Shown: positions 2,431 through 54,553, counted from the first letter of the stretch. The stretch is 64,000 nucleotides of DNA from a candidate division WWE3 bacterium UBA1401 (GCA_002305115.1 DBQF01000001.1:224916-288915), one strand, 5' to 3'. The notes: generated from the letters alone by a model not told the origin. Numbers and translations are program-made.

Positions 2431-3084
2431 TTGCTGTATAATTGCACTATGGACCCAAAAGGTAAAAAGCTGATGACAGTATTTGCCCATCCTGACGATG
2501 CTGAAATATGGGCAGGTGGAACAATAGCCAAATGGGATAAACGTGGTGGTAAATCCCTGGTTGTTTGCTTTACAACAGATGGCACGAGAAAAGATGAGGC
2601 GAGACGGGGCGCAAGTATTTTAGGGTCCGAACTCTCAATAGTTGAAGATAACCCTGAATTCAGTAAGCCCAACATCGAGCTAGTATCAAAGGAGATAGAA
2701 GAATTTAGTCCGGAAATTCTTATAACACATACATCGCAAGACTCTCATCCGGAGCATCGCGCTGTCTTTGAAATAGTGTCGAATTCGATAATTAACTCAA
2801 GAATCAGGCAAGGAAAACCCAAGTTGTTGTTATGTGCGGATACATATAATGAAATTTGTTTAGATGGAGTTTTCAATCCAAACATCTACGTTGATGTGTC
2901 TGATTATTTTGATCTTAAAATGGCGGCGATAGAAATTTACAAATCACAACCGTTCGACATGTGGAAGAAAGTGGCCACAGATCAAAATGAATTGCTTGGC
3001 TCTAGACTGTCGGAAGTCAAATATGCGGAAGGTTTCATCCAGGTACCCATTTTAGGGAAGTTAGCCAATCTTTCCCTCTTTTGA
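2431..3084 (+). CDS. PIG-L/LmbE family N-acetylglucosaminyl deacetylase
   Basis: 'VFAHPDDAEIWAGGT' signature and 'HPEH' motif. Start may be a later Met. Confidence 0.85.
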   Translation: MLYNCTMDPKGKKLMTVFAHPDDAEIWAGGTIAKWDKRGGKSLVVCFTTDGTRKDEARRGASILGSELSIVEDNPEFSKPNIELVSKEIEEFSPEILITHTSQDSHPEHRAVFEIVSNSIINSRIRQGKPKLLLCADTYNEICLDGVFNPNIYVDVSDYFDLKMAAIEIYKSQPFDMWKKVATDQNELLGSRLSEVKYAEGFIQVPILGKLANLSLF

Positions 3085-4211
3085 TGAGAATAGCATTTAC
3101 ATTTCTGACATATGGTACAAATATTTTTGGGGGTATTGAGAATGCACTTTTCAATTTAACTAAAGGCTTGAAGGATATTGGGCATGAGGTCTCTGTTTTT
3201 ACTAGTTCAACATATCTAAGTACTAATGGGAATCTTCCCGCTAACGTATATCAGTCGAAACATCTACCTACAAAATATGATGGGAATGTAAACAGACTCA
3301 TTTCCTATTTGCAAGATCATAGCAAACTTATTAACAGTGACCTTGATTCCTTCCTCGAGAAATGTAAGCCAGACCACGTTGTTGTTGTGGATCCTATTTG
3401 GGGAATCCTAGAAGCGACCGCTTACATTAACAGGAGAAACATCCCCATATCTATGTCTTATCATATAGCCAATGATTGGCCAGAAACAAGACCGATAATG
3501 GAACGTTCCCTACTTAACCAATACGCTAACTTTTTTGTTGTAAGCAGGTTTTTGGAAACAGAAATAAAAGGTAAATTTAATGTGGCTAGGGATGTAAAAA
3601 TGAAAATTTTACCAAACTCTATCGATACTTCCTTATATAGTGATCCTTCTAGCATTCCAGAGGAATATATCTTCTGTAATTCAAGGATAGCGGAAGGAAA
3701 AAATGTTGACGTCTTAGTCAATGCCTTCAGCACAATTAAGGACGATGGTTTGGAATTAGTACTTTGTACAGGAAAATTTCCTTTTGGGGATTCCGCTAAC
3801 GTAGTTAATAAAATGGAAAGACTTGTCAAAGAACTACGGATAGAGAATCAAGTTAAATTTTTACCCAACATAAATTGGGTGGATGTCCCAGCGATGGTTA
3901 AGAAATCCTATGCTGTTGTATTACCCTCAACTTATGAGACGTTTGGAATCGCAGCACTAGAAGCCTCCGTTGCTGGTGTTCCTCTGATAGTTGCGGATGC
4001 CACGAATTTTAAGAATCTTGTAAAACGGAATGCACTTTTTTTTACACCGAATGCTATAGAAGATCTAAGCAAAAAAATACGGACGCTACGTAGAAATTAC
4101 AAATACTATAGAGACAAATCTAGTAAAGACAAAGTGCATTTTATAAATAACTTCGATAATATAGTTGTTGCAGAAAGGCTTGTGAATGAAATACATTCTA
4201 ACAACGTGTAG
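3081..4211 (+). CDS. glycosyltransferase family 4 (GT-B)
   Basis: 'GGIENALFNL' N-terminal motif and 'YETFGIAALEASVAGVPLIV' C-terminal motif. TGATG overlap with the upstream gene. Confidence 0.85.
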   Translation: MMRIAFTFLTYGTNIFGGIENALFNLTKGLKDIGHEVSVFTSSTYLSTNGNLPANVYQSKHLPTKYDGNVNRLISYLQDHSKLINSDLDSFLEKCKPDHVVVVDPIWGILEATAYINRRNIPISMSYHIANDWPETRPIMERSLLNQYANFFVVSRFLETEIKGKFNVARDVKMKILPNSIDTSLYSDPSSIPEEYIFCNSRIAEGKNVDVLVNAFSTIKDDGLELVLCTGKFPFGDSANVVNKMERLVKELRIENQVKFLPNINWVDVPAMVKKSYAVVLPSTYETFGIAALEASVAGVPLIVADATNFKNLVKRNALFFTPNAIEDLSKKIRTLRRNYKYYRDKSSKDKVHFINNFDNIVVAERLVNEIHSNNV

Positions 4212-4593
4212 TAAAGACAAAGATGAGAGCAAGGTCCTTCTTCCAGCTATTCAGAGATATACGGACAACCGTGTTGCATATGTATACAGAATAAGCAAGA
4301 AATTGTCGTTACCCATGATCATATTTTCTGGTAAATACGGGATCTTGAAAACCAATGATCCGATTCCATTTTATGACCTTAGATTGGAGAAAGAACATGT
4401 TGATGCAATGGTTGAAAAGGTTGCGGGTCAGTTCCACCAGTTAAGTGTTTCCAAAATAGATTTCTATGGTTTAGATGAACAAACTCATACTGATTGGGTA
4501 CCCTACTATGATGTTATTAGAGAGGTTTGTGTACAAGTTGGTACAGAACTGAATATTATCCATTTAAAAGAGAGTGAATATGCCACAAAATAA
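4186..4593 (+). CDS. hypothetical protein (135 aa)
   Basis: ORF overlapping both neighbours within the GT operon. No firm motif. Confidence 0.5.
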   Translation: MKYILTTCSKDKDESKVLLPAIQRYTDNRVAYVYRISKKLSLPMIIFSGKYGILKTNDPIPFYDLRLEKEHVDAMVEKVAGQFHQLSVSKIDFYGLDEQTHTDWVPYYDVIREVCVQVGTELNIIHLKESEYATK

Positions 4594-5809
4594 ACCTTTT
4601 TTACCGCACTGGTTTAAGTATATTGACTTGGAAAGCAAGAGACAGTTCAATGCTGAACTGTTCAAGGATGGTTCATTTCGTATTTATGAGCGTGAAACTA
4701 TCAGAGGTCAGGATCAAAACATTGCAATTTTTCTCGATGGTGTATTCCACCCCACTACAACAGGAGCTGCCTATTACTTTATGAATCTTTTGGTAGGCCT
4801 TGCAGGAAGTCCGCTAAATGTTTTTTTGTTTAGATGTTATAGAGGGTGGGAAGATCCATATATTTATGAAAAATTACCATTTAGTACTGTATGTATAGAT
4901 CCAGAAGTATTTTATGATGATCTTACGTCACAAATAGACGTATTACGAAAATACTCTATTCGTACTCTGATTTTTGACACATCTGAAGTTATTTTACGAC
5001 AAGGGGTTTACTTTAAGGAGACTTTGAAATCAAAAATAATCCACGATATACAAAATGTAGACCATGTTTTATCGAAAATGGGAGGTTTGTCCCCTGATGT
5101 AGTGGAAAAACAAAAACAAGAACTTCTCGCTGCAGATAAATACGTGGATTTATATTGGGCAAAGACGGAAATGGATAAAGTACAACTACAGAATGTAGGG
5201 ATAGACCCGCATAAAATCAGAGTAAGGCATCCTATTATTGATACTAAGAGAATACGTTACTCCTTAAGGAAGAAACTAGGAAATCCTGTTAAAGCACTCT
5301 TCCTTGGAAACATGTCTTATCCCCCCAATATAGAGGGTTTAGAAGTCCTGGAGAACACCTACAAAGATTGTGTGACGAATGGCATTAGGCTTGAAATTGA
5401 CGTTGTAGGAGAAGGTGATTTGGCAACGCTTGCAGAGAAGTTCCCCCACCTCAATTTAAAAGGTAAAGTGGATAGCATAAATGACCTCTTCTTGGATTAT
5501 CATTTAGCATTCGCTTGTCCCTCGTATGGATCAGGTATTAGCCTTAAGGTTTTGGATTATATGGCAGCTGGATTGCCTGTTATAGCAAATGACATAGGAG
5601 TTAGAGGACATTCCCAACTGATCAGTAATTATGTCCTGATCGATAACAGAGAGTCACTTTATCCCGCTGTTCAGAGGTTATTCGAGAACCCCGAGTTTTA
5701 TACTCGTTTGAGTTCGTCAAGCCGAGTATATATAGACAAATATTTTAATCCGGAAAAAGATATACGTACCTTTGAGGATGATATAAGGGAAATTAATCTC
5801 TGTCCTTGA
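4574..5809 (+). CDS. glycosyltransferase (GT-B, GT4-like C-terminal domain)
   Basis: C-terminal 'GSGISLKVLDYMAAGLPVIAND' resembles the Glycos_transf_1 motif. Confidence 0.7.
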   Translation: MNMPQNKPFLPHWFKYIDLESKRQFNAELFKDGSFRIYERETIRGQDQNIAIFLDGVFHPTTTGAAYYFMNLLVGLAGSPLNVFLFRCYRGWEDPYIYEKLPFSTVCIDPEVFYDDLTSQIDVLRKYSIRTLIFDTSEVILRQGVYFKETLKSKIIHDIQNVDHVLSKMGGLSPDVVEKQKQELLAADKYVDLYWAKTEMDKVQLQNVGIDPHKIRVRHPIIDTKRIRYSLRKKLGNPVKALFLGNMSYPPNIEGLEVLENTYKDCVTNGIRLEIDVVGEGDLATLAEKFPHLNLKGKVDSINDLFLDYHLAFACPSYGSGISLKVLDYMAAGLPVIANDIGVRGHSQLISNYVLIDNRESLYPAVQRLFENPEFYTRLSSSSRVYIDKYFNPEKDIRTFEDDIREINLCP

Positions 5810-6443
5810 CCAGGTAAATGCCAGGTAAGCTTACCCCAGTTACGATAGCCTTCCATACTATTTGACCTAGTGTTAGTCCTAGAGCTGTAGATATGCCCAA
5901 GGATTCCCCACCAAAAATCAGAGGTAAGGTAGTGAAGGCCAAAACAGCAAATATCAGTGAGTCTACTGGCAAACTTACAGCATTACTGACCAAAACCCTT
6001 GACCACTGGGGAAATTTGGCAAAGCGACTTTTCCACAGCTGGTATATTTCAGTATCTAACAATTCGCTAACAACTTCAGCTATTATAGAAGCAATAGTAA
6101 TTGAAGGCACTAAACCAAAAATTGAATTCCATGCCCCCTCTAATGCGAAGAACTTTGGGGAAGGAAGAAACGTCATTAGTTGTAAGTAAAAAGCCATTAT
6201 CAAATTCAGGCCTCCCGCTGTTAGAATTGTTGCTCTTGCCCACTCTTTTCCTAGCCTCTTATGTAACATATCTCTCAATGTAAAAGTTAAGGTGAAAATG
6301 AATGTACCCGCAGGTATAGCAAAACCATAAATCCGCACAATCTTTGTTGCTCCTATATCAGCTAACGCTTGAAATACGAGGTATGATCCCACAAGCAGAA
6401 CTATTGTCCATATTTCTTTTTTGTTAAGATTACTCAGACTCAT
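5793..6443 (-). CDS. yhhQ: queuosine-precursor (preQ0/preQ1) transporter, YhhQ/DUF165 family
   Basis: Multi-TM protein with 'ADIGATKIV...AGTFIFTLTFTLRDMLHKRLGKEWA', typical of YhhQ. Confidence 0.75.
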   Translation of the reverse strand: MSLSNLNKKEIWTIVLLVGSYLVFQALADIGATKIVRIYGFAIPAGTFIFTLTFTLRDMLHKRLGKEWARATILTAGGLNLIMAFYLQLMTFLPSPKFFALEGAWNSIFGLVPSITIASIIAEVVSELLDTEIYQLWKSRFAKFPQWSRVLVSNAVSLPVDSLIFAVLAFTTLPLIFGGESLGISTALGLTLGQIVWKAIVTGVSLPGIYLVKDRD

Positions 6444-6879
6444 TTTTTATTGTAGTCAAAATTTTTACAAGTTCTTCTTCTGTTTCAGCCATATTCTGTC
6501 CAATACTTTCTGTTATCATAATATTATCGTAACCCTGTTTATCCATGCTTCTTATATCTGTTTTAAAACCAACACATTTCTTTCCTAAAATATAAGCCAT
6601 TCCAAGTTCAGCACATGTTCCTTCGTCTGGTACCCTTCCATCCAGTAAACACAATATTATGTCACATTTTTTAACGCCCTCTAAATCATTATTAAAAATT
6701 GTTTTTCTTAATTTTGCGGTGTCACTTGTGTTTTTGCTTAAGTCACTAAACCTACCTGCTTTGTCTTGTGGCAAGTGGACTACAAAACCCAAATCCTCAA
6801 CGAGTTTTTTTATATGTAAATTTCTGTGCCACTCCATTTCATTAAATAGTGGCGCGGCGATATATATTAAAATTCCCAT
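6430..6879 (-). CDS. nucleoside 2-deoxyribosyltransferase family protein
   Basis: 'IYIAAPLFNEME' and 'PDEGTCAELGMAY' motifs. 14-nt overlap with yhhQ. Confidence 0.75.
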   Translation of the reverse strand: MGILIYIAAPLFNEMEWHRNLHIKKLVEDLGFVVHLPQDKAGRFSDLSKNTSDTAKLRKTIFNNDLEGVKKCDIILCLLDGRVPDEGTCAELGMAYILGKKCVGFKTDIRSMDKQGYDNIMITESIGQNMAETEEELVKILTTIKNESE

Positions 6880-6941
6880 ATGCTGAGAATAATATCATAT
6901 AAAATCCTCTAACAATAATGCATACCTGGTATACTAAACCT

Positions 6942-6977
6942 AGGCTGAGTTAGGGAGATACACGCCTAATTCAGCCT
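6942..6977 (+). promoter_or_regulatory. 5'-leader hairpin of the RT operon (13-bp stem, 10-nt loop)
   Basis: AGGCTGAGTTAGG (6942-6954) pairs with CCTAATTCAGCCT (6965-6977). The one non-WC pair is G-U on the + strand only. An extended -10 TGGTATACT at 6927-6935 puts the predicted TSS at about 6942. The ATG is at 6985 with no SD. Confidence 0.5.
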
Positions 6978-6984
6978 ATTTAAT

Positions 6985-7719
6985 ATGACAACAGACTTAC
7001 TCGATAAAGCCTTTAAACTTCTAAGAAGGAATTATGGTTGCCCCGGTCTAGATGGCGTTTCTTTAAGAGAGATAAAAAAAGATTATAACAAGCATAAAAA
7101 TGTGGTTTTGGGCAAATATACTGAGAATCAAGTAAACTCCTTGTCAATAAAGACAACTACTATAATTGATTATGGAGGTAAAGAAAGGGAAATATTTGTT
7201 TATTGCATCCATGAAAGATGGTTGCAAATGTACCTGAAATTACAAATTGAACATGACATTGAGAAGAACTTGAAAAGTTATGTTTTCGGTTATAGAAAAG
7301 GTGTGACAATGAAGGACTTGCATAGCTACTTACTTAATACCGGTCTCGAGCATATCCTTCATTTAGATATAGCCAAATATTTTGATCAAATTGATAGAGA
7401 ATCACTCTTTAATTTTCTAGAACACAATATTGGTGTAAGTAGAGACATCCTTGTTAAGATTCAAAAGAGTGTTTCTCATACAAATAAAGGATTGCCGCAA
7501 GGCAATGTTTTGTCCCCTATTCTATCAAATGTCTACCTTATACCCTTTGATAAGTGCTTTCCAGAAAATTATGCAAGATTTAGTGATGATCTCTATTTTG
7601 CACTAGGAACTCCCAGGAAAAAGGATGAAATGGTTAAGAAAATTAGCGAGCATCTACTTAAACATAAGCTTAAGATAAATTATAGTAAACTGGAAATTAA
7701 GAATGTTAACAAATTCTAA
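6985..7719 (+). CDS. reverse transcriptase (RNA-directed DNA polymerase), unusually short, no thumb region
   Basis: RT motifs: 'GCPGLDGVS', 'LDIAKYFDQID', 'GLPQGNVLSPILSNVYL', 'RFSDDLYF' (FSDD catalytic box) and 'KLKINYSKLEI'. The ORF ends about 8 aa after the last motif. Confidence 0.85.
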   Translation: MTTDLLDKAFKLLRRNYGCPGLDGVSLREIKKDYNKHKNVVLGKYTENQVNSLSIKTTTIIDYGGKEREIFVYCIHERWLQMYLKLQIEHDIEKNLKSYVFGYRKGVTMKDLHSYLLNTGLEHILHLDIAKYFDQIDRESLFNFLEHNIGVSRDILVKIQKSVSHTNKGLPQGNVLSPILSNVYLIPFDKCFPENYARFSDDLYFALGTPRKKDEMVKKISEHLLKHKLKINYSKLEIKNVNKF

Positions 7720-8569
7720 AGAAAAAAGAATACTGATAATGGATGGAAGTCACTACCTATATAGGGCATATTATGGAGTTCCAGATAGTGCAAAATTGCC
7801 AAGTGGTCTGCAAGTGAATGCTGTATATGGTTTTTTTGCATACCTAAGAAAAGTGGTGGATTCTGTAAACCCTTCTAACATTGTTGTTGTTTTTGACTCG
7901 GAAACCGGTATCTCTGAAAAGGTGGCTCAAAATACCTCCTATAAAGCAAACCGGAACTATTCAGATACGGGAATGTATGAGCAGTTGCCCATAATAAAGA
8001 AAATCTTAACCTTTTTATGCATTCCATATATTGAACCTGACAATCTTGAGGCCGATGATTATATAGGGGCATTAGCTGTGAGAAGCAAAGCTAGAAGTTA
8101 TACATTGATATTTTCGAATGACGCAGATTTTCTCCAACTGTTGGATGATTCCCTTAACGTAGTAAAGATGGGAAGAAAACAACCAGAGATCATGGATAAT
8201 GATAGTTTTTATGAGGTCTTCGGTTTTGAAAGTAAATACTATGTTGATTATTTAACGTTGAAAGGGGACCCAACGGATAATGTCAGGGGGGTACCGGGTA
8301 TCGGCAAAAAAACTGCCCAAAAGTTTATTTCCACCTATAACTCTATTGATAATATATACGCAAATCTTTCTGATCACCCGGAGAGAATGCGGCATTTACT
8401 ACTTGAGTATGAGTATGTTGTGAAAAGTACGTACGAACTACTGAAAATAGACACCTCTGTTGGGACCGAGGATATTGAAGAAATACTCAAAATCCCGTTT
8501 CAAAAGCATGATGAGTTGAAGAATAAAACTAACCACTTACTAACTTGCGTTGGAACTAACACTAGATGA
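7703..8569 (+). CDS. 5'-3' exonuclease / flap endonuclease (Pol I N-terminal domain family)
   Basis: 'MDGSHYLYRAYY', 'VVVFDSE', 'EADDYIGAL', 'SNDADFLQL' and H3TH 'GDPTDNVRGVPGIGKKTAQKF'. Start lies 17 nt inside the RT ORF. Confidence 0.85.
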   Translation: MLTNSKEKRILIMDGSHYLYRAYYGVPDSAKLPSGLQVNAVYGFFAYLRKVVDSVNPSNIVVVFDSETGISEKVAQNTSYKANRNYSDTGMYEQLPIIKKILTFLCIPYIEPDNLEADDYIGALAVRSKARSYTLIFSNDADFLQLLDDSLNVVKMGRKQPEIMDNDSFYEVFGFESKYYVDYLTLKGDPTDNVRGVPGIGKKTAQKFISTYNSIDNIYANLSDHPERMRHLLLEYEYVVKSTYELLKIDTSVGTEDIEEILKIPFQKHDELKNKTNHLLTCVGTNTR

Positions 8570-9636
8570 ACGTGGAAATTGTGAATGATGAAGAGTCGTT
8601 TAGAAAGATGGCAGCTGATTGGGAAAAATTATACAAAGTATTTGAGTATACTACACCCTACCAAAGCTGGAATTGGAATTACTTGTACTGGGAGTATTTT
8701 AAAGGGAAAAAGCAGCTAAAAGTATTTAGATATGATTTAGACGGTACTGTTAGCGCAATCTTTCCAATGTGGGTACGAGAACAACTAGGTCTTTCCGTAT
8801 TGGAACCAATAGGAACCAGAGGCACTGATTATATACATTTACTGCTAAAAACTGAGCAAGCAGAAGATGTAATTGATAACTTTCTCGAATGGTTTAGTCT
8901 CTCTAGATTAGACGTTTTAAATTTGGAAGATATACCGCATTCTGCGTTTTATATTAATATTTTGAGAACAAAATCAATTAAACATGGATTGTTTTATTAT
9001 CTAGATAGTAAATACTGCCCTTGTTTTGAAATAGATCTCCCTGATAAATGGGAGGACTATCTAAGAACGTTATCTAAAAGAGATAGGTCTGATATAGATT
9101 ACTACCGCAGATATGCTGCTAGAAACACACAAAATGTTACTTATATACAAGGTGGGTTTAGTGATTTGAAAGAGCACTTTCGTCTACATCAAAAGGTGCG
9201 TGAAAACAGAGGTGACAAAGGAGCCTACAAAATAACTCCTGTTAGAAACCTGGTAACAGAGTATATTTCGTCTTTGGAAAACGAAGGCGACTTGAAATTG
9301 GTTTTTTTGGAAATAGATAAAACGCTTTGTGCAACAATTCTGGGTATCGAGAAAGACTTGGTTAGATTCAATATGACAATAGGGCATGATCCTACATTCT
9401 CTAAGCTAAGACCAGGAACTTTGCTTTATGGATATGATATCGAGAATTGTATCAAGCAAGGTGTAAAGAAGTACGACCTTTCTAGAGGTCCCGACCCTTA
9501 TAAGAGTAAAATGGGAGCAAGGTTGAAGTTTAATACGCGAATGGTGCTAACCAAATCAAAGGAGCATGCTAGTCAGTATTTAGAAAATCAGAAAATATAT
9601 TGGAAGAACGAAGACTACGCACCAACTGAAAAGTAG
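8566..9636 (+). CDS. GNAT-fold acyltransferase, FemAB/CelD (BioF2-like) type
   Basis: N-terminal 'FRKMAADWEKLY...TPYQSWNW' pattern typical of CelD/BioF2-like acetyltransferases. ATGA overlap with the nuclease gene. Confidence 0.65.
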   Translation: MNVEIVNDEESFRKMAADWEKLYKVFEYTTPYQSWNWNYLYWEYFKGKKQLKVFRYDLDGTVSAIFPMWVREQLGLSVLEPIGTRGTDYIHLLLKTEQAEDVIDNFLEWFSLSRLDVLNLEDIPHSAFYINILRTKSIKHGLFYYLDSKYCPCFEIDLPDKWEDYLRTLSKRDRSDIDYYRRYAARNTQNVTYIQGGFSDLKEHFRLHQKVRENRGDKGAYKITPVRNLVTEYISSLENEGDLKLVFLEIDKTLCATILGIEKDLVRFNMTIGHDPTFSKLRPGTLLYGYDIENCIKQGVKKYDLSRGPDPYKSKMGARLKFNTRMVLTKSKEHASQYLENQKIYWKNEDYAPTEK

Positions 9637-9758: not shown

Positions 9759-9951
9759 TGGTCGGGGTGACCCTCCTACGTCCTTCGGACTTCGGCGGGC
9801 AGGCAGGGACTTGGTTACTTGTCAGCAAATGTGGCCGTGCCATCCAAAGCGTTAACAGTAGTCGATAGAATTATTTCTAAATTGGTATTGTCTAGCTATT
9901 CTATAAAGGAAATCTGTCTGCGACGGATGGTCGGGGTGACAGGACTCGAAC
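9759..9951. repeat. right copy of the ~190-bp direct repeat (includes the tRNA-Pro 3' end)
   Basis: See 2212-2400. TGGTCGGGGTGAC at 9759-9771 duplicates the first 13 nt of the tRNA-Pro 3' end found at 9928-9940. Confidence 0.85.
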
Positions 9952-10003
9952 CTGCGGCCTCACGCACCCCATGCGTACGCGCTTCCAACTGCGCTACACC
10001 CCG
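9928..10003 (-). tRNA. tRNA-Pro (anticodon GGG), CCA encoded
   Basis: Manual cloverleaf: CGGGGTG TA GCGC AGTTGGAA GCGC G TACGC ATGGGGT GCGTG AGGCC GCAGG TTCGAGT CCTGT CACCCCG A CCA. Confidence 0.85.
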
Positions 10004-10043
10004 ACGTGCCGCCATGCAAGACAAATGTTGTTGCGGCGGATAA

Positions 10044-10289
10044 TCATAACCTAGTTTTCAAGAATCTTCTCCCAAAACCTGTCTTCAAATACTTTTCTCG
10101 TTTTAAAGCATTTTCTTTACTTAGGCAGCCCTCAAAGTAAACGAGTTCCCAAGGACGCCCATATTTTGTTGCATCCACTTTACCTTTGTTGTGTAACAGA
10201 AGCTGTTTCCTTATTGATTCAGAATAACCTACGTACAATTTACCAGTTTTCTTGCTTTTTAGCACATAGACATAGGTATAGTAAAACAT
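10044..10289 (-). CDS. GIY-YIG nuclease family protein (81 aa)
   Basis: 'YVYVLKSKKTGKLYVGYSESIRKQLLLHN...' has the GIY/YIG motifs. 'ALKREKYLK' C-terminal motif. Confidence 0.85.
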   Translation of the reverse strand: MFYYTYVYVLKSKKTGKLYVGYSESIRKQLLLHNKGKVDATKYGRPWELVYFEGCLSKENALKREKYLKTGFGRRFLKTRL

Positions 10290-10292
10290 CTT

Positions 10293-10366
10293 ACGCTACC
10301 AACTCCCGCCTGCCATCGCAAGACTGAGCTTGCTCAGGCGTTGCGGGCAGGGCGCTACACTCCGCT
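10293..10366 (-). other. tRNA 5'-half-like fragment (acceptor + D-arm) interrupted by a 47-nt hairpin
   Basis: 10293-10304 matches the tRNA-Pro D-arm at 10/12, and 10352-10365 matches D-stem plus 5' acceptor at 12/14. The insert 10305-10351 folds as CCTGCC/CGCAA/CTGAG nested stems. The fragment ends 3 nt before the GIY-YIG ATG. Confidence 0.5.
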
Positions 10367-10455
10367 ATCCTGCTAATTCTCGCTATTTTACCACTTCTTC
10401 CATATACATATTCAAAAATATATGTAAAAATACACTCCAAAGGAGGTGAAGTTAA

Positions 10456-10980
10456 ATGGATGAAATTAATCAAGAAAATACGACTGCTGAAAATCCAACA
10501 GAAGTTCCTCAACCACCTCAACCCCCGGCGGAGCCTCAAGGCCCAATAGAAGCTGCGGCTTCAGTAGCTAGTGTTAACTATGCGACCTTTGGTGAAAGAT
10601 TTGTTGCTCTTATTATCGATGCTTTCTTAGTAGGGTTAGTAACAGGCATATTAGGCGGTATCTTTGGCGTGTCACGAGTACAGTCTGGCGAAGGCTCTGT
10701 GGTTTATTCCAACCCTTTTAGTTTATTAGGTCCTGTCTACTATGTGGTAATGACTGTTATATATGGTGCCACTCTTGGCAAAAAAGTAATGAATATTCGT
10801 GTTAAAAAAGACGGTCAAGAAAGAAACCTTAACTGGGGTGAAGGCATACTTAGAGAAATAATCGGTAAATTCCTGTCAGCTATAGTTCTTTTACTAGGGT
10901 ATCTTTGGATGTTGTGGGATCCAAAAAAGCAAACCTGGCACGACAAACTTGCAGGAAGTGTAGTTGTAAAGACAAAATAA
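10456..10980 (+). CDS. RDD family membrane protein
   Basis: 'ATFGERFVALIIDAFLVGLV' and C-terminal 'WHDKLAGSVVV' are typical of the RDD domain. SD AAAGGAGGTG upstream. Confidence 0.8.
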   Translation: MDEINQENTTAENPTEVPQPPQPPAEPQGPIEAAASVASVNYATFGERFVALIIDAFLVGLVTGILGGIFGVSRVQSGEGSVVYSNPFSLLGPVYYVVMTVIYGATLGKKVMNIRVKKDGQERNLNWGEGILREIIGKFLSAIVLLLGYLWMLWDPKKQTWHDKLAGSVVVKTK

Positions 10981-11016
10981 TGGTCTTATATTTGAGGGAG
11001 TGGTATAGCCATTCCC

Positions 11017-11685
11017 TCAAATTATCGAGTACTCCCGTTTCTCAAACACCAAATGAAAAATTGGCCGCTTTTGGCCAAATGCCAGTTTCTTACTCCAGGT
11101 AGTTTCAAGTTCCCTTAAAGCAGATTTATTCAGAATACTAAATTTTACTAACTCCAACCCGAGTTGCGTATAGGCTGGAACTAGTTTTTTCTCAATATAT
11201 TCGCCACTTATTTTAGCTAAGCCCAACCTCTCAAACTCCGAAGGTTCAAATTCTGGAGAATAGCCGAAAATGATATTTAATTTACCTTCTGGTTTCAGTA
11301 ACCCTATTATATCAATTAGTTTGGTGGTATCGGGTGCAGCTACATATTGTAGTAACGTTCCCCAAGGCAAAATAATAAACACCTCATCTGCGCTAGTAGT
11401 TAGTTCTTGCGGAATATTTTCAGCCGCAGCAGGTGCAAACAGTACATTAGGCAATTTCTTCCTGGCAGCCTTTCTGGCATAAATTTGCAGTTGCTTAGGT
11501 GCAGGGTCAATGCCGATAAATAAAGTATCCGGGTGTGTTAACGCGTTCTTATAAACAAACTTGCCGTCCCCAGTTCCAAGATCAATTACAAGTCTGGAGT
11601 ATTGTTTAATGAGCTCTGTTACATCAACTTCCTCTAGCTTATTTCCCTTAACTACCTTCATTACTATACATAATACACTACCCAT
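11017..11685 (-). CDS. 16S rRNA (adenine1408-N1)-methyltransferase-like protein (NpmA/KamB family)
   Basis: 'VIDLGTGDG', 'LFIGIDP', 'ILPWGTLLQYV' and 'WSKKLAFGQKRPIF' line up with my memory of NpmA ('HIDLGTGDG', 'FYIGIDP', 'ILFPWGTLLEYV', 'WAKRLAFGRKRSFF'). Size matches. Start may be the ATG at 11661. Confidence 0.65.
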   Translation of the reverse strand: MGSVLCIVMKVVKGNKLEEVDVTELIKQYSRLVIDLGTGDGKFVYKNALTHPDTLFIGIDPAPKQLQIYARKAARKKLPNVLFAPAAAENIPQELTTSADEVFIILPWGTLLQYVAAPDTTKLIDIIGLLKPEGKLNIIFGYSPEFEPSEFERLGLAKISGEYIEKKLVPAYTQLGLELVKFSILNKSALRELETTWSKKLAFGQKRPIFHLVFEKREYSII

Positions 11686-11690
11686 CTTTT

Positions 11691-12071
11691 GTGTTACACT
11701 ATAAACCTATGAACCAAGAATCAATTAACAAACGTCTGAAAATAATTGCAGATTTGCAGGTAGAACTTAAAAAATTAAGAGCTCTATATCAAGAATCTCT
11801 AGAAAATGACCCTCAGTACCAGGAAATTCAAGAACAGGCTCAAAAACACAGAGAAGAAACGAAAGTAAGAAAGGACCAGGTTTTATCCAACTCTTCCTAT
11901 CAAAATATTGCAGACAAAATTAAAGATGTTCAGACAGAGCTTAAAGAGCATAAAGAAATTTTGTCTCAAGATTTGGTAGATTTTTACAAAGAAAGCGGTA
12001 GCCCGGAAATAGAGGACGAAGAAGGTAATGTCAAGCGCATGAAGTTTTCTGTAAAACTTGTTAACGGTTAG
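11691..12071 (+). CDS. hypothetical coiled-coil protein
   Basis: ORF. A likely ATG at 11709 is more plausible than the GTG at 11691. Confidence 0.5.
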   Translation: MLHYKPMNQESINKRLKIIADLQVELKKLRALYQESLENDPQYQEIQEQAQKHREETKVRKDQVLSNSSYQNIADKIKDVQTELKEHKEILSQDLVDFYKESGSPEIEDEEGNVKRMKFSVKLVNG

Positions 12072-13480
12072 TTCTTCTTAACAAACAATTTATAATTGCC
12101 AAACTTAAGTTCTGAATCAGGCTGGTAAAATTCATCAGCCATCTTGCCTTCATCTGCGGCAATAAACACACTATATTTAGGATTACCTACTACAATTTGA
12201 TCCTCCGGCTCAATAAAAGGCCAGCCGCTAAAATCTTCATAGGGGTTTTGCGGGTCATATAACTTAACTTCCGCATCCTGCACATAATATTTGCCTACTA
12301 CAAATTCGATAGGAGAAGTAAATACAATTGCTTCATTTCGGCCGGAAAACCTTTTAGCCAAAAGTTTCATTCCTTCATAGTAACCAGGGGAAGAAATTCT
12401 AAGCAAAGTTACAATATATAGAACTACCATTATGCCCATTGTTTCAAATCTTACCAATTTGCCTAATACTACTGCTGTTACCATTAAGTAAAAGATTGCT
12501 GAAGGTAGTAAGTATCTTTCCACGTAAATGCTTTTATTAGTCACAATACCGTAAAAAATAACCACTAGCTGAGGAATTACAGTCATGGCAATTAAAAACA
12601 CCACTTTTTCTGTTTGTGCTGGGTTATCTTTAGTTTTATAAATTAGAATGGTGACACCTACCACTAGTGCAATAAAAATGATGGTGCCTAATGAGGTGGT
12701 GTCCAGAATAAAACTCAGGTCATTTAGCGCATCACTTCCTGCCAATCGGGCTTTCACTCCAAAAGAATAGGCAGTTATGCTTCTTTGAATATTTGTAAGT
12801 TCCGATGGACGCGCCCAGCCAATGTTTAGGTCATTATTGCTTTGGTTACCCCTCATAAAAAGCCCTGCTGCTATTGCTCCTATAAGTGCCAGTTTAGGTA
12901 ACTCTTTTAGTAATGTTTTCCTGTTACTAAAGGCATAGTACCCCATAAGCGGTGGTAGAAAAGCAAAGGTCATGTAGTGAGTTGCTAAGGCAGCAATGAC
13001 AGTAAATGTAAACAGCCAGTACTTTCTTGTTATTAGAAAGTACACAGCCAGTAGTATTACAAAGCCAAAAAATGTGTAAGATCTGGCTTCAATGGAATAG
13101 GTGATTAGAAAAGGGTTGATTGCTGCTAAAAATGCTGCAATAGCTCCTATTTCTTTGGTGAATAGTTTTTTAACTGTTATGTAAATTAAAAATACTGTAA
13201 AAACTCCAAAGACAAGCGGCAGTAATCTAAGGGTAAAGTCACTGACGCCGAAGAGTAAACTCCAGCCTTTGTTAATAAATGCGTAGAGTGGGGGGTGTAC
13301 ATCATTAGTTATTTCTTTTAGGAAAGAAGATTTATCCGCGCGCATTAGCAGGCCAATAAAGGCTTCATCAAACCATAGATCGTCTTTGGTTATGTTTTTT
13401 AGTCTGGTGACAATAGCAACTGTTAAGATAATTACTATATCTATGTAGTTGGAAGAAAGTAGTTTTTTTAAAGAGTTCAT
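12068..13480 (-). CDS. GT-C glycosyltransferase (ArnT/PMT, GT39/83-like) membrane protein
   Basis: Polytopic protein with the early-loop 'DLWFDEAF' acidic motif typical of ArnT/PMT-type enzymes. Confidence 0.7.
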   Translation of the reverse strand: MNSLKKLLSSNYIDIVIILTVAIVTRLKNITKDDLWFDEAFIGLLMRADKSSFLKEITNDVHPPLYAFINKGWSLLFGVSDFTLRLLPLVFGVFTVFLIYITVKKLFTKEIGAIAAFLAAINPFLITYSIEARSYTFFGFVILLAVYFLITRKYWLFTFTVIAALATHYMTFAFLPPLMGYYAFSNRKTLLKELPKLALIGAIAAGLFMRGNQSNNDLNIGWARPSELTNIQRSITAYSFGVKARLAGSDALNDLSFILDTTSLGTIIFIALVVGVTILIYKTKDNPAQTEKVVFLIAMTVIPQLVVIFYGIVTNKSIYVERYLLPSAIFYLMVTAVVLGKLVRFETMGIMVVLYIVTLLRISSPGYYEGMKLLAKRFSGRNEAIVFTSPIEFVVGKYYVQDAEVKLYDPQNPYEDFSGWPFIEPEDQIVVGNPKYSVFIAADEGKMADEFYQPDSELKFGNYKLFVKKN

Positions 13481-19558: not shown

Positions 19559-20734
19559 CTACTTGCCGTAAGGCTCTGGTGTGAGACCTATGGCAGACAT
19601 CCGGGTGGTGTCGACCAGTTGCAGGTCAACGAGATTCACACCCGGATTGATCCAAACCTTTGCGACCCAGAAGCGACCAGTTATCCTGGGGTTGTGCTCG
19701 TTGAGCACGGTTTGCTCCAGGATGACATAGTCATTCGGGCCGCTCCCCGTCCACATAATGACTCCCCGAGGGTTGTTGTCCCCGAACGGGTTCACCTGTG
19801 GAACAGGAACATATATGTAAACCCACATCCCCTCCTGCATACGCAGGAAGAACTGGGATGCAGGGCATTCCCGGGCATCGGCCGTGAAGAACCCGCCTTC
19901 CATCCACATACCTCCCTCAACAGGGATGAGCAGAGGTCTCGCGGAGAGACCCTCACCACCTTGGAGAAGGAGATTCAGCCACGTGTCTGTCCCGCTTTCG
20001 GGGACAATGGTTGGAGTGGCCGAGGGCGCGGGTGTAACCGTGCTGGTTGGTGTCCACGTCGGCGTTTCCGTTTGCGTCGGCGTTGACGTGAGCGTGGGCT
20101 CCGGCGTATTCGTACCCGTCGGCGTGATCAGCGGTATAGTCTGCGTCGGCGACGGGGTGGACGAAGGCGTGGCGGACGGGGCGGGCGTGTTGGTCATTGT
20201 CGGCGGAGGTGTCTCCGTCGGCGTGGAGCAATCCACAGACGAATCTGGAATTGCCCCGTGTGCGAATCCCTCCACCATCAGGACCTCACTCTCCCGGCGT
20301 CCCCCCGTTGGGAACAGGTATTCCTGGGGGTCTGCCTGGAACTCTTTAGGTAGGCACCTGTCGATTTCCGCGACCGTTACCTCGCCTTTTGGGAGTTCCG
20401 TTCCAGGGTCCCACACGAAGTTGAATCCGTAGACGCTTCCCCCAGTTATAACTTCTTGGGGGGTTAGCCCTACGTGCAGAAATCCTCTCTGCCGTAGAGA
20501 GAATCCCTGCGGAACCCGAATCCTGGTGACTTCCCAAATGAACTTGGGATATTCCCAGGTCCAGTGGAGATCAATTTCCACAGGGCGGCCTTCGTACTGT
20601 CCCCTGATGAAGATGATCCCCTCACCCGTGTTGTTTGCTTCTTCACGGGCGAACGCGGGGTTGGTGGAGGCCAGGGAGCCTGCCACCAAAACGACGATAG
20701 CCAGAACGACGAGCCAAAACTTGTTGCGCGACAT
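19559..20734 (-). CDS. secreted protein with Pro/Thr-rich linker; compositionally foreign (GC-rich)
   Basis: Start reassigned to the ATG at 20734 (GGAGGA 5 nt upstream). Signal peptide 'MSRNKFWLVVLAIVVLVAGSLASTNPAFA'. About 90-aa P/T/S linker. A sampled line is about 63% GC, against about 30% in the flanks. Confidence 0.7.
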   Translation of the reverse strand: MSRNKFWLVVLAIVVLVAGSLASTNPAFAREEANNTGEGIIFIRGQYEGRPVEIDLHWTWEYPKFIWEVTRIRVPQGFSLRQRGFLHVGLTPQEVITGGSVYGFNFVWDPGTELPKGEVTVAEIDRCLPKEFQADPQEYLFPTGGRRESEVLMVEGFAHGAIPDSSVDCSTPTETPPPTMTNTPAPSATPSSTPSPTQTIPLITPTGTNTPEPTLTSTPTQTETPTWTPTSTVTPAPSATPTIVPESGTDTWLNLLLQGGEGLSARPLLIPVEGGMWMEGGFFTADARECPASQFFLRMQEGMWVYIYVPVPQVNPFGDNNPRGVIMWTGSGPNDYVILEQTVLNEHNPRITGRFWVAKVWINPGVNLVDLQLVDTTRMSAIGLTPEPYGK

Positions 20735-38537: not shown

Positions 38538-39509
38538 ATGCATCCTAACCAGAATCGAATAGACTACAAAGGTTATATTGTGCCAGTTCTTAAGGAAGTG
38601 TCAGATGCATATGGTTTTGGTAGTTACAAAGAGCATAAGGTTATTGAAACAGGGTACGAAGACTTCAACGTAATACTGACAACCAATCTTGGCAGATTTT
38701 TCCTTAAGTTTTTTGCCAAGTTTAGAGATGAGATTGAGTGTCAGCGGTATGTTGATATTATGGTAGCTGCCATATTGCAAGGTGTCAGCCACCCTAAGCA
38801 GTATGGCTCTCCCATGGGTTATATGTTTACCAAAGAAACTGAAGAAGGCATTGTAAGACTTGTCGCCCTTGAATACATAGAAGGTAAAACATTTTATGAT
38901 ATGAAAAGGAAACCTGACGATAGCGAAAGTGCTCTTGTAGTACAACAGGCTGCTCTGATAAATAAGATGCCCATAAAGCCCCAGTATTTCTATGATGATT
39001 GGGCAGTTGTAAATTTACTAGTAGAGTTCGAAAAACTTAAGAATCACCTGTCCAAAGAGGATATTGCCTTAATTGAGCCTGTTGTAGCTAAGTTCTCTGA
39101 TATTGATATTCCTAGCTTACCCAACTGTTTTGTGCACGGTGACATAATTGATACCAATGTTTTGCTTGCAGATGATGGAAAAGTTTATGTTTTAGATTTT
39201 TCAGTTGCAAATTGCTACCCTCGGGTGCAGGAACTGGCTGTTATGCTCTGTGACATATTATTTAATGCTAATGCCTCCACATTCCAGAGGAAAATGGATC
39301 AAGCTTTAGTGGTTTATCAGGAAATTGTTTCCTTGGAAGCGCGTGAGCTTGAAGTATTGCCGATATTTGTGCAAGCAGCTCACGCTATGCATATTATCGG
39401 GGCCTCGAAGTTTGCTAGTACTGGTGGTGCGTCTGCGGAGAATGATCATTGGTTGGAAGTAGGTAGAGCTGGCCTTAAAGCTTCTATCGAATTTTGGGGA
39501 GATATTTAA
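38538..39509 (+). CDS. phosphotransferase (APH/choline-kinase family)
   Basis: 'CFVHGDIIDTNVLLADDGKVYVLDFS' Brenner/APH catalytic motif. Confidence 0.7.
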   Translation: MHPNQNRIDYKGYIVPVLKEVSDAYGFGSYKEHKVIETGYEDFNVILTTNLGRFFLKFFAKFRDEIECQRYVDIMVAAILQGVSHPKQYGSPMGYMFTKETEEGIVRLVALEYIEGKTFYDMKRKPDDSESALVVQQAALINKMPIKPQYFYDDWAVVNLLVEFEKLKNHLSKEDIALIEPVVAKFSDIDIPSLPNCFVHGDIIDTNVLLADDGKVYVLDFSVANCYPRVQELAVMLCDILFNANASTFQRKMDQALVVYQEIVSLEARELEVLPIFVQAAHAMHIIGASKFASTGGASAENDHWLEVGRAGLKASIEFWGDI

Positions 39510-53755: not shown

Positions 53756-54553
53756 TTAGAATTCGTGTGTGTCAGCGGCCATTTTGCCACCATCAACAGT
53801 AATTGTTTGTCCATTGATATAAGAGGAATCTTTGCCAGCTAAGAAAGATACAACACTAGCGACCTCACTCACCTCACAAACTCTTCTCATTGGATATTGC
53901 TTTGAAATATCTGAGTACCATTTTTCTAGCTCTTCTGGCGATCTGTTATTTTCGGAATTGGCTATTTTGACAAATCCTGGACAAATAGCATTTGCTCTAA
54001 TGTCAGGAGCAAAATCTACTGCAATGGTTCGTGTTAGGGCATTAATTGCAGCCTTTGATACAGAATATACACTGAAATTTGGGAGTGCATTAAAAGCAGC
54101 TAAGGAGGATATATTAATAATTGTTCCTCCTCCTGATTCCAGTATCAAAGGTATTGAGTATTTTGCCATTTTGAAATATCCATTTAAATTTACATTTAAT
54201 GTTTCATTCCACTCTTCCTCAGTAATATCTACAATGTTTTTAGACATTCCAGATCCATATCTTGCAACACAATTAACTAGGCAATTTAATCCATGGAAAG
54301 TTTCTTTTGTCGTTTTGATAATTCTTTCAACGTCTTCTGTAATTGTCACATCGGCTTGTATAAAAATGGCATCTCCACCCGCATCCTTAATATGCTCTAC
54401 AGTTTTGTTTCCCATATCACCCAGATCGACTACAACGACACAGAAGCCATCTTTTGCCAAACGTATAGAAGTTGCGCCACCAATAGAAGCACCTCCAGAT
54501 TTATAACCCATCGCTCCCCCAGTAACTATGGCTACTTTTTTAGTATTGTTCAT
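53756..54553 (-). CDS. SDR-family oxidoreductase (FabG-like)
   Basis: 'VAIVTGGAMG' cofactor motif and 'YSVSKAA' catalytic YxxxK. Confidence 0.85.
   Translation of the reverse strand: MNNTKKVAIVTGGAMGYKSGGASIGGATSIRLAKDGFCVVVVDLGDMGNKTVEHIKDAGGDAIFIQADVTITEDVERIIKTTKETFHGLNCLVNCVARYGSGMSKNIVDITEEEWNETLNVNLNGYFKMAKYSIPLILESGGGTIINISSLAAFNALPNFSVYSVSKAAINALTRTIAVDFAPDIRANAICPGFVKIANSENNRSPEELEKWYSDISKQYPMRRVCEVSEVASVVSFLAGKDSSYINGQTITVDGGKMAADTHEF

What the first reader, a model, noticed from the sequence alone, without database searches (positions are those of the whole stretch)
11017..11685. NpmA/KamB-like 16S rRNA m1A1408 methyltransferase (aminoglycoside-resistance family) as an apparently chromosomal gene
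Seen in sequence: the 214-222-aa protein has 'VIDLGTGDG', 'LFIGIDP', 'ILPWGTLLQYV' and 'WSKKLAFGQKRPIF'. These appear in the same order and spacing as the blocks I recall from NpmA (HIDLGTGDG, FYIGIDP, ILFPWGTLLEYV, WAKRLAFGRKRSFF), including the two Trp residues that stack on A1408. Established knowledge: this family confers pan-aminoglycoside resistance by methylating N1 of A1408. It is known mainly from actinomycete antibiotic producers and one clinical plasmid. Inference: this is either an intrinsic resistance determinant or a housekeeping rRNA modification in this lineage. An APH-family kinase (38538-39509) and a VanW protein (55675-57438) are also present in the window.
Basis: partly seen in the sequence, partly recalled or inferred. 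Interest (0 to 1): 0.6.

Follow-up and report, generated by a model that had tools for sequence, protein, structure and literature searches.

The report
NpmA-family rRNA methyltransferase in WWE3 chromosome
This is an intact gene of the enzyme family that methylates ribosomal RNA at A1408 and blocks aminoglycoside antibiotics; it is an old, inherited chromosomal gene of an uncultured ultra-small bacterial lineage (WWE3/Patescibacteria), and it is a new but ordinary member of a known family.

Summary
A 222-aa ORF lies at 11017-11685 on the minus strand, and its real start is probably the ATG at 11661 (214 aa). It contains all four quoted motifs. It scores 187.7 bits on Pfam NpmA (cutoff 60), and an AlphaFold model superposes on NpmA with TM 0.92. 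Every residue known to be critical in NpmA is kept: motif I, D55, E88, W107, W197, E146 and R207. The gene is not mobile. Its GC matches the surrounding chromosome, no relative occurs on any plasmid or phage searched, and the arrangement PMT_2 / 120-aa ORF / (truB) / methyltransferase / (RDD) / tRNA-Pro(GGG) recurs in WWE3-type genomes. The WWE3-type proteins form one clade (183/200 bootstraps) under purifying selection (dN/dS about 0.1). Loci collected through the neighbouring gene carry the methyltransferase in 27 of 32 cases, and the empty sites form a single nested clade, which points to one loss. A member of this clade already has a crystal structure (PDB 7JLZ, "UncKam"). The family also occurs in at least 258 species genomes. 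The APH and VanW genes are generic and irrelevant. Activity and resistance remain untested for this protein; one weak preprint reports no MIC change for a WWE3 homolog. Verdict: new member of a known kind, low to moderate interest.

The parts
11017..11685 (-). Longest ORF of the NpmA-family methyltransferase (222 aa, first ATG)
   Evidence: Pfam NpmA 187.7 bits
11017..11661 (-). Probable true coding sequence (214 aa, starts MKVVKGNK)
   Evidence: Homologs are 208-215 aa and start at the aligned Met; 7JLZ residue 1 aligns to residue 9 of the long ORF. Neither ATG has a clear Shine-Dalgarno sequence, so the choice of start is an inference.
11563..11583 (-). SAM-binding motif I, D35-L-G-T-G-D-G41 in 222-aa numbering (= NpmA D30-G36)
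   Evidence: Invariant in 19/19 and 48/48 sequences; the role of G32/T33/G34 in SAM binding is from PMC12340973
11506..11508 (-). D60 (= NpmA D55), the acidic residue that binds the SAM ribose
   Evidence: D or E in all 19 sequences; role from PMC12340973
11362..11364 (-). W108 codon TGG (= NpmA W107), one wall of the A1408 channel
   Evidence: Invariant; codon read; role from PMC12340973
11095..11097 (-). W197 codon TGG (= NpmA W197), which positions the flipped A1408
   Evidence: Invariant; codon read; role from PMC4705659
11065..11067 (-). R207 codon CGG (= NpmA R207), which contacts the A1408 phosphate and stabilises the flipped base; its supporting Glu (E147 = NpmA E146) is also kept
   Evidence: R in 18/19 and E in 17/19 sequences; roles from PMC4705659
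11709..12071 (+). Conserved 120-aa ORF of unknown function ('cc120'), transcribed divergently from the methyltransferase; the syntenic anchor
   Evidence: No Pfam or NCBIfam hit; next to the methyltransferase in 11 WWE3-type genome loci and 38 metagenome loci; alignment A3
12068..13480 (-). PMT_2 family glycosyltransferase, part of the conserved block
   Evidence: Pfam PF13231 57 bits; same relative position in L002, L006, L010, L011, L024 and in several metagenome loci
10456..10980 (+). RDD-family membrane protein, convergent with the methyltransferase; a frequent but not constant neighbour
   Evidence: Pfam PF06271 92.9 bits; present downstream in 7 genome loci
9928..10003 (-). tRNA-Pro(GGG), same strand, 1.0 kb downstream; the other boundary of the conserved slot
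   Evidence: ARAGORN and Rfam. A same-strand tRNA-Pro(GGG) lies 0-2.5 kb downstream in 18 of 21 WWE3-type loci, and the other three contigs end too early to tell

Best explanation
The gene encodes a functional SAM-dependent 16S rRNA (adenine1408-N1) methyltransferase of the Kam/NpmA family. By analogy with NpmA, it docks on the assembled 30S subunit through its basic beta2/3 linker. It flips A1408 out of helix 44, holds the base between W108 and W197 with R207 (braced by E147) on the phosphate, and transfers a methyl group from SAM to N1. The resulting m1A1408 would make the organism's own ribosomes insensitive to kanamycin/apramycin-type aminoglycosides. The gene is a long-resident, vertically inherited chromosomal gene of a WWE3 (Katanobacteria)-type Patescibacteria lineage, lost in one sub-lineage, and is not a recently acquired mobile resistance gene. 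Shown here: family membership, fold, conservation of the critical residues, purifying selection, conserved chromosomal position, and absence from plasmids and phages. Inferred: the methylation itself, its target in this organism, and the resistance phenotype.
For: Pfam NpmA scores 187.7 bits against a cutoff of 60, over the full length. PDB sequence hits are to family members only down to 4e-19, and the next hits have E>0.01. The AF2 model has pLDDT 93.5 and pTM 0.91. Foldseek ranks 1-19 are all A1408 methyltransferases (NpmA TM 0.92, KamB 0.88), followed by a drop to E about 1e-11 and TM below 0.66. The equivalents of NpmA D30, G32, T33, G34, D55, P56, E88, W107, T109, E146, W197, K199 and R207 are all kept; their roles come from PMC4705659 and PMC12340973. 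dN/dS is 0.09-0.13 in four informative pairs of the clade. GC is 0.37-0.38, the same as the background. No transposase or integrase lies next to the gene; the neighbours are RDD, PMT_2, YkuD and tRNA-Pro. The window carries ClpB, PFOR, BipA and a DEAD-box helicase. The gene order is conserved in WWE3-titled MAGs. The WWE3-type clade is supported in 183/200 bootstraps and includes PDB 7JLZ, which groups with WWE3 MAG L011 in 200/200 at 76% identity. With an independent anchor, 27 of 32 informative loci carry the gene, and the 7 dereplicated empty sites form one nested clade. There is no match in 72,556 plasmids or 50,697 phages. NpmB1, only 40% identical to NpmA, still confers pan-aminoglycoside resistance (PMC9311965), so 37-44% identity is compatible with the same function.
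Against: No activity data exist for this protein. A 2026 preprint that expressed a WWE3 npmA-like gene in E. coli BL21 saw no aminoglycoside MIC change. That text reports no check of protein expression and no methylation assay, and its gene labels look swapped, so the result carries little weight. NpmA R153 and R205, which contact rRNA or lie in the beta6/7 linker, are Leu and Gln here. F105 is Leu and N38 is Phe. The beta2/3 linker is 4 residues shorter. The host 16S rRNA could not be retrieved, so A1408 was not verified in this organism. Divergence of the methyltransferase does not correlate significantly with that of its neighbours (Mantel p 0.08-0.28), so vertical co-inheritance rests on position and monophyly, not on co-phylogeny. 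The gene is absent from one clade, so it is dispensable.
Confidence: 0.75

Rival explanations
1. Same chemistry, different purpose. m1A1408 is a constitutive, housekeeping-type ribosome modification in this lineage, kept for decoding or ribosome-assembly reasons rather than for protection against aminoglycosides.
For: The gene is ancestral and sits at a fixed position in the lineage, and in many relatives it is divergently adjacent to truB and close to tRNA-Pro, both translation genes. It is under purifying selection. These organisms have tiny genomes and no sign of aminoglycoside biosynthesis in the window. KamB changes translational accuracy in E. coli (PMC12406665). The preprint argues that fermentative CPR bacteria take up aminoglycosides poorly anyway.
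Against: One whole clade has a clean empty site, so the modification is dispensable. The window itself lacks truB, so that linkage is not constant. Nobody has shown a physiological role for m1A1408 apart from drug resistance. The two purposes are not mutually exclusive.
Confidence: 0.2
2. An NpmA-fold enzyme with a shifted substrate: it methylates a different rRNA or tRNA nucleotide in this lineage.
For: Several NpmA rRNA-contact positions differ (R153L, R205Q, shorter beta2/3 linker). The single published expression test of a WWE3 homolog gave no resistance. The gene has RNA-modification neighbours (truB, tRNA-Pro) in relatives.
Against: The whole base-flipping and stacking apparatus (W107, W197, R207, E146 equivalents) is conserved across the clade. 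The depositors of 7JLZ, a clade member, call it a 30S A1408 methyltransferase. R153 and R205 are not conserved across the family as a whole, so they are specific to NpmA and do not define the family. TrmB-type models score only about 29 bits against cutoffs of 112-132.
Confidence: 0.07
3. A recently acquired, mobile resistance gene that inserted next to a tRNA gene.
For: The gene lies in a slot of variable content beside tRNA-Pro(GGG), with a small GIY-YIG gene nearby. tRNA genes are common integration sites (established knowledge).
Against: There is no compositional deviation and no integrase, transposase or flanking repeat was found next to it. The same position is occupied by orthologs 39-54% identical in many genomes, and these form one clade. 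The gene is absent from plasmid and phage collections. The nearest relative anywhere is only 54% identical.
Confidence: 0.03
4. An inactive relic that keeps the fold but has lost catalysis.
For: There is only the negative MIC result for a homolog.
Against: The ORF is intact, all catalytic and SAM-binding residues are kept, and dN/dS is about 0.1.
Confidence: 0.03

Closest known systems
UncKam, PDB 7JLZ ('30S ribosomal A1408 methyltransferase from an uncultured bacterium')
   Same: Same WWE3-type clade (183/200 bootstraps; 7JLZ groups with WWE3 MAG L011 in 200/200 at 76% identity). Same length class (214 aa), same short beta2/3 linker, and the same conserved W/W/R/E set. It is the best PDB sequence hit, at 1.2e-55.
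   Different: It is only 44% identical to the window protein. 7JLZ has E at the D55 position and E at the K71 position. From my own memory, unverified because the paper is not held: Witek and Conn 2014 reported that the four new enzymes they cloned gave the m1A1408 resistance spectrum in E. coli, and I believe UncKam was one of the four.
NpmA (E. coli pARS3; C. difficile/E. faecium Tn7734/ICE Tn7740)
   Same: Same Pfam family and fold (TM 0.92, rmsd 1.9 A to 3MTE). Same SAM-binding residues, the W107/W197 stacking pair, and R207/E146.
   Different: 37% identity. NpmA is carried on mobile elements (PMC12271512), whereas this gene is chromosomal and syntenic. NpmA has a 4-residue PSKG insertion in the beta2/3 linker, plus R153, R205, F105 and N38, all of which differ here. 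The protein scores 126 bits against the 470-bit NCBIfam NpmA cutoff. A sister relationship between NpmA and the WWE3 clade is not supported (35/200).
NpmB1 (PDB 7EHF)
   Same: Same family and fold (TM 0.83). It gives the best NCBIfam score, 134.9 bits.
   Different: 42% identity. NpmB1 groups with an Acidobacteria MAG (L065, 84%, 200/200), in line with its proposed origin in a soil bacterium (PMC9311965). It keeps the longer beta2/3 linker.
KamB / Kmr / CacKam (actinomycete Kam enzymes)
   Same: Same fold (TM 0.80-0.88), same conserved Trp pair and SAM motifs, and chromosomal genes.
   Different: 27-30% identity. Those enzymes come from aminoglycoside producers or actinomycetes and serve self-protection, and they couple SAM binding, 30S binding and the beta6/7 linker in different ways (PMC4705659). 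The host here has a reduced genome and no producer context.

Membership tests
Kam/NpmA family, 16S rRNA (adenine1408-N1)-methyltransferase (Pfam PF24675) | Full-length match to the family profile above the curated threshold, and better than to any other methyltransferase family | tested here: met
   187.7 bits against a gathering score of 60, profile positions 3-210 of 214; the next family scores 35.6 bits
Kam/NpmA family | Class I SAM-methyltransferase fold with the family's extended beta2/3, beta5/6 and beta6/7 linkers | tested here: met
   AF2 model pLDDT 93.5. The top 19 Foldseek PDB hits are all family members (TM 0.76-0.92), and the best non-family hits have TM below 0.66. This is a predicted structure, not an experimental one.
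Kam/NpmA family | SAM-binding residues: motif I DxGxGxG, an acidic residue at the end of beta2 (NpmA D55), and E88 | tested here: met
   D35-G41, D60 and E89 are present; motif I is invariant in 48/48 sequences; roles from PMC12340973
Kam/NpmA family | Two universally conserved Trp residues lining the A1408 channel (NpmA W107/W197) | tested here: met
   W108 and W197 are invariant in 19/19 and 48/48 sequences; described as 'universally conserved among the m1A1408 methyltransferases' in PMC12340973
Kam/NpmA family | A beta6/7-linker Arg that stabilises the flipped A1408 (NpmA R207), with its supporting Glu (E146) | tested here: met
   R207 and E147 are present, in 18/19 and 17/19 sequences; roles from PMC4705659
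Kam/NpmA family | A positively charged beta2/3 linker for docking on 16S rRNA | tested here: met
   R71, K72, R75, K76 and K77 align with NpmA K66/K67/K70/K71, but the linker is 4 residues shorter, as in the whole WWE3-type clade. This was tested at sequence level only.
Kam/NpmA family | Catalyses N1 methylation of A1408 on the assembled 30S subunit | not testable with these tools
   This needs an in vitro methylation assay, or primer extension or mass spectrometry
Kam/NpmA family | Confers kanamycin/apramycin-type aminoglycoside resistance when expressed | not testable with these tools
   The only published test of a WWE3 homolog found here is a preprint reporting no MIC change, without expression or methylation controls. 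The paper that characterised UncKam is not held.
Kam/NpmA family | The target nucleotide A1408 is present in the host's 16S rRNA | not testable with these tools
   There is no rRNA gene in the window or in any of 141 fetched loci. A1408 is conserved in bacteria (established knowledge).
Named resistance alleles NpmA, NpmB, KamB, WarA (NCBIfam NF000030, NF040634, NF000363, NF051863) | Score at or above the curated allele or equivalog cutoff | tested here: not met
   126/470, 135/460, 94/350 and 103/305 bits. It is a family member but none of the named enzymes.
Acquired (mobile) 16S-RMTase | Located on a plasmid, transposon or ICE, or compositionally foreign, with near-identical copies in unrelated hosts | tested here: not met
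   GC equals the background. The chromosomal context is conserved. There are no plasmid or phage matches. The nearest relative is 54% identical.
TrmB-type tRNA (m7G46) methyltransferase (Pfam Methyltransf_4), considered as an alternative | Score above the family or equivalog cutoff over the full domain | tested here: not met
   The Pfam hit is partial (28.7 bits, profile positions 4-77 of 173). NCBIfam TrmB models score 28-29 bits against cutoffs of 112-132. Foldseek TM to TrmB is about 0.65.

The most novel reading that the evidence does not exclude
m1A1408 methylation may be an ancestral, near-universal and constitutive feature of the ribosomes of a whole class of ultra-small bacteria (WWE3/Katanobacteria). 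It would be encoded at a fixed locus beside truB and tRNA-Pro and kept for translation-related reasons as much as for antibiotic defence. Under this reading, uncultured environmental lineages (WWE3, Pyrinomonadaceae), and not aminoglycoside producers, would be the main natural home of the Kam/NpmA family.
Probability: 0.25. Interest if true: 0.5.

Novelty: new member of a known kind. Interest (0 to 1): 0.25.

Why it matters
If the enzyme is active, these uncultured bacteria carry ribosomes that are intrinsically insensitive to kanamycin/apramycin-class aminoglycosides. The WWE3 lineage would then be a deep, vertically inherited reservoir of the only mechanism that defeats nearly all clinical aminoglycosides. 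That bears on where npmA-type genes come from, which is still undetermined (PMC12271512), although this clade is not shown to be the source. The presence/absence contrast at a fixed locus also gives a natural comparison for asking what m1A1408 does for a cell that makes no antibiotic. In itself the gene is one more divergent member of a well-studied family whose clade already has a crystal structure.

Tried and rejected
(1) NpmA as sister of the WWE3-type clade: this appeared in a first NJ tree but has only 35/200 bootstrap support and is absent from the Kimura-distance tree, so it is not claimed. (2) Co-divergence of the methyltransferase with its neighbours (Mantel test) was not significant: 120-aa ORF r=0.10, p=0.24; RDD r=0.16, p=0.28; PMT_2 r=0.55, p=0.08 with n=6. 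(3) Promoter and terminator scan: promoter-like sites occur at chance frequency (5 found against 5.0 expected). One site would place a transcription start just before the ATG at 11661, but I give it no weight. (4) Search for a 16S rRNA gene to read position 1408: none in the window or in 141 loci. (5) The papers that would settle UncKam and NpmB function and origin (PMC4122235, PMC8448102) are not held, and searches for '7JLZ' and 'UncKam' returned nothing. (6) The preprint's supplements, which might give npmA prevalence in WWE3, are not held. (7) The first bootstrap run timed out and was redone with vectorised distances. (8) My own error: the 59-63% identities are to the best of ten family queries, not to the window protein. 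Direct comparison gives 46-48%. (9) The window SDR (53756-54553) matched 18 Acidobacteriota loci, but it is a generic short-chain dehydrogenase at 24-32% identity, with no link to the window's methyltransferase. (10) APH and VanW as a 'resistance neighbourhood' was rejected; they lie 27 and 44 kb away.

Full report
OBSERVATION. The window has an ORF at 11017-11685 on the minus strand: 222 aa from the first ATG, or 214 aa from a second ATG at 11661. The 214-aa form is probably the real product. Homologs are 208-215 aa and begin MK.V.GNK at the aligned methionine, and residue 1 of the closest solved structure aligns with residue 9 of the long ORF. Neither ATG has a clear Shine-Dalgarno sequence. 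The only promoter-like match occurs at chance frequency.

WHAT IT IS. Pfam places the protein in PF24675 (NpmA, 16S rRNA adenine1408-N1-methyltransferase) at 187.7 bits, E=2.3e-55, against a gathering score of 60 and over nearly the whole profile. Generic methyltransferase domains score 36 bits or less. NCBIfam gives 135, 126, 103 and 94 bits for NpmB, NpmA, WarA and KamB, all far below those allele-level cutoffs (305-470), so it belongs to the family but is none of the named enzymes. Against PDB sequences the ten best hits are all A1408 methyltransferases: 7JLZ 1.2e-55, NpmB1 7EHF 8.7e-39, NpmA about 1e-37, Kmr, CacKam, and KamB 4e-19. After those, E-values jump above 0.01. An AlphaFold2 model built on 48 homologs is confident (pLDDT 93.5, pTM 0.91). 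Its first 19 Foldseek matches in the PDB are family members (NpmA TM 0.92, rmsd 1.9 A; KamB TM 0.88). The best hits outside the family have TM below 0.66.

FUNCTIONAL RESIDUES. I mapped the residues with published roles in NpmA onto an alignment. Their roles come from PMC4705659 and PMC12340973. Kept, in 222-aa numbering:
- Motif I D35-G41 (NpmA D30-G36)
- D60 (D55, SAM ribose), P61, E89 (E88, adenine), T110
- W108 and W197 (W107/W197, the universally conserved pair that sandwiches the flipped A1408)
- R207 (R207, holds the A1408 phosphate) and E147 (E146, braces R207)
- K199
Motif I and both Trp residues are invariant in 48 of 48 homologs.
Different from NpmA:
- F105 to Leu, N38 to Phe, S195 to Thr
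- R153 to Leu, R200 to Lys, R205 to Gln
- a beta2/3 linker 4 residues shorter, which still carries five basic residues
The differing positions also vary across the family, so they are peculiarities of NpmA and not family requirements. Overall identity is 37% to NpmA, 42% to NpmB1 and 44% to 7JLZ. NpmB1 is only 40% identical to NpmA and still confers pan-aminoglycoside resistance (PMC9311965), so this level of divergence does not argue against the same activity.

WHOSE GENE, AND IS IT MOBILE. The exact protein occurs once in the 5.8-billion-cluster collection, on a 544 kb NCBI contig, and the next relative is only 54% identical. Named relatives come from candidate division WWE3 and Patescibacteria. 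The window is ordinary chromosome: three tRNA genes, ClpB, pyruvate:ferredoxin oxidoreductase, BipA/TypA, a DEAD-box helicase and glycosyltransferases. GC at the gene (0.37-0.38) equals the background. The immediate neighbours are an RDD-family protein, a 120-aa ORF with no family, a PMT_2 glycosyltransferase and a YkuD transpeptidase. No integrase or transposase is adjacent. No relative was found on 72,556 plasmids or in 50,697 phage genomes.

CONSERVED LOCUS. The best matches are WWE3/Patescibacteria MAGs (39-52% identity), followed by many Pyrinomonadaceae/Acidobacteriota, then Chloroflexota, Actinomycetota, Planctomycetota, Bacillota, Cyanobacteria and one gammaproteobacterial single-cell genome. 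In the 21 WWE3-type loci the window's gene order recurs: PMT_2, then the 120-aa ORF on the opposite strand, then the methyltransferase, sometimes RDD, then a same-strand tRNA-Pro(GGG). That tRNA lies 0-2.5 kb downstream in 18 of 21 loci, and the other three contigs end too early to tell. In many relatives a truB gene (Pfam TruB_N, 99 bits) sits between the methyltransferase and the 120-aa ORF. The window has no truB anywhere.

PHYLOGENY AND SELECTION. In neighbour-joining analysis the WWE3-type proteins form one clade, supported in 183 of 200 bootstraps. The clade includes the window protein and PDB 7JLZ. 7JLZ groups with WWE3 MAG L011 in 200/200 replicates at 76% identity. The PDB title of 7JLZ is '30S ribosomal A1408 methyltransferase from an uncultured bacterium (UncKam)'. 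NpmB1 groups with an Acidobacteria MAG (84% identity, 200/200). The position of NpmA is unresolved. Within the WWE3-type clade, dN/dS is 0.09-0.13 in four informative pairs, which indicates purifying selection. Pairwise divergence of the methyltransferase does not correlate significantly with that of its neighbours, so that extra line of support for vertical inheritance failed.

CORE OR ACCESSORY. The genome loci were selected for having the gene, so they cannot show how often it is absent. To remove that bias I used the 120-aa ORF as an independent anchor and fetched 60 metagenome loci.
- Of 32 loci with at least 2.5 kb upstream of the anchor, 27 carry the methyltransferase in the expected divergent position.
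- Counting shorter but decidable loci, 38 carry it and 9 do not.
- In eight of the nine without it, tRNA-Pro(GGG) lies about 75-180 bp from the 120-aa ORF, a clean empty site. The ninth (L131) has RDD and the tRNA but no methyltransferase.
- After dereplication, 28 metagenome loci plus the window carry the gene and 7 do not. All 7 fall in a single clade nested among positive lineages in the tree of the 120-aa protein.
The simplest reading is that the gene was present in the ancestor and was lost once. The gene is therefore old and usually retained, but dispensable.

MECHANISM. By analogy with the NpmA-30S structure as described in PMC4705659 and PMC12340973, the enzyme should act in these steps:
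1. Bind the mature 30S subunit through its basic beta2/3 linker.
2. Flip A1408 out of helix 44.
3. Stack the base between W108 and W197, with R207 braced by E147 on the phosphate.
4. Methylate N1 using SAM bound by motif I, D60 and E89.
Shown here: the fold, the residues, the selection and the genomic history. Inferred: the reaction, the target in this organism and the phenotype. The host's 16S gene could not be reached.

EXPERIMENTAL LITERATURE. A July 2026 preprint (10.64898/2026.07.13.738296) expressed a codon-optimised npmA-like gene from a WWE3 genome in E. coli BL21 and found aminoglycoside MICs unchanged. Its text reports no check that the protein was made and no methylation assay, and the annotations quoted for the two tested genes appear interchanged. 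I therefore treat it as weak negative evidence. The paper that should hold the functional data for UncKam (Witek and Conn 2014, cited) is not in the library. From memory only, it reported a typical m1A1408 resistance spectrum for the four enzymes it introduced.

SIDE CLAIMS. The 'APH-family kinase' (38538-39509) is a generic PF01636 protein whose best NCBIfam matches are homoserine-kinase models far below threshold. The 'VanW protein' (55675-57438) is a PG_binding_4 + VanW + G5 wall protein at 78 bits against a vanW cutoff of 365. They lie 27 and 44 kb away and say nothing about the methyltransferase. The statement that the family is known mainly from producers and one plasmid is out of date.

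VERDICT. The observation and its main interpretation are correct. The gene is a new, rather divergent member (at most 54% identity to anything known) of the known Kam/NpmA family, within a WWE3-type clade that already has a solved structure and has been noted in surveys of CPR resistance-like genes. What this analysis adds is the genomic history: a fixed chromosomal locus, a monophyletic clade under purifying selection, and one lineage-specific loss. Whether the modification serves antibiotic defence or translation cannot be decided without experiments.

Noticed in passing
window 11709-12071 (+); L002-L024 and L082-L141: A 120-aa, Lys/Glu-rich protein with no Pfam or NCBIfam family is conserved across WWE3-type genomes (12 invariant columns, ending in ...KF.V.L). 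In many relatives it lies directly downstream of truB on the same strand, which suggests a translation- or RNA-related role.
   Followed up: partly
window 10004-11708; L082-L141: The interval between the 120-aa ORF and tRNA-Pro(GGG) is a slot of variable content, holding from none to three or more genes (methyltransferase, RDD, truB, GIY-YIG, others) depending on the genome. One clade has the tRNA about 75-180 bp from the ORF with nothing between them.
   Followed up: partly
window 2449-9636 vs L016 7075-9726 and beyond: A block of seven genes (glycosyltransferases and a GNAT/FemAB-like acetyltransferase) is 61-83% identical to locus L016. The methyltransferase of that same locus is only 43% identical, and L016 lacks the 120-aa ORF, PMT_2 and RDD. 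The two sides of tRNA-Pro may therefore have different histories.
   Followed up: no
window 10044-10289 (-): An 81-aa stand-alone GIY-YIG domain protein lies immediately upstream of tRNA-Pro(GGG). It was not found in this position in the related loci.
   Followed up: no
window 19559-20734 (-): The GC spike (0.49-0.54 against a background of about 0.38) coincides with a 391-aa secreted protein that has a long Pro/Thr/Ser-rich linker and no Pfam family. The composition reflects the linker, not foreign DNA.
   Followed up: partly
L002, L003, L009, L010, L012-L017, L024 (genome contigs): Many third-party MAG assemblies titled 'uncultured Candidatus Saccharibacteria bacterium' share the methyltransferase clade and the gene order with MAGs titled candidate division WWE3. 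Their record titles are probably imprecise.
   Followed up: no
L025-L080 (Pyrinomonadaceae/Acidobacteriota loci): A large, separate clade of NpmA-family genes occurs in Pyrinomonadaceae, often with a short-chain dehydrogenase gene about 100 bp upstream. NpmB1 (PDB 7EHF) is 84% identical to the copy in Acidobacteria MAG L065, in line with the published suggestion that npmB came from a soil bacterium.
   Followed up: partly
window 55041-55697 (+) and 60481-61125 (+): A NYN-domain nuclease and an RNase T-type exonuclease lie in the window near tRNA-Gln and tRNA-Glu. They are ordinary RNA-processing genes and have no link to the finding.
   Followed up: no
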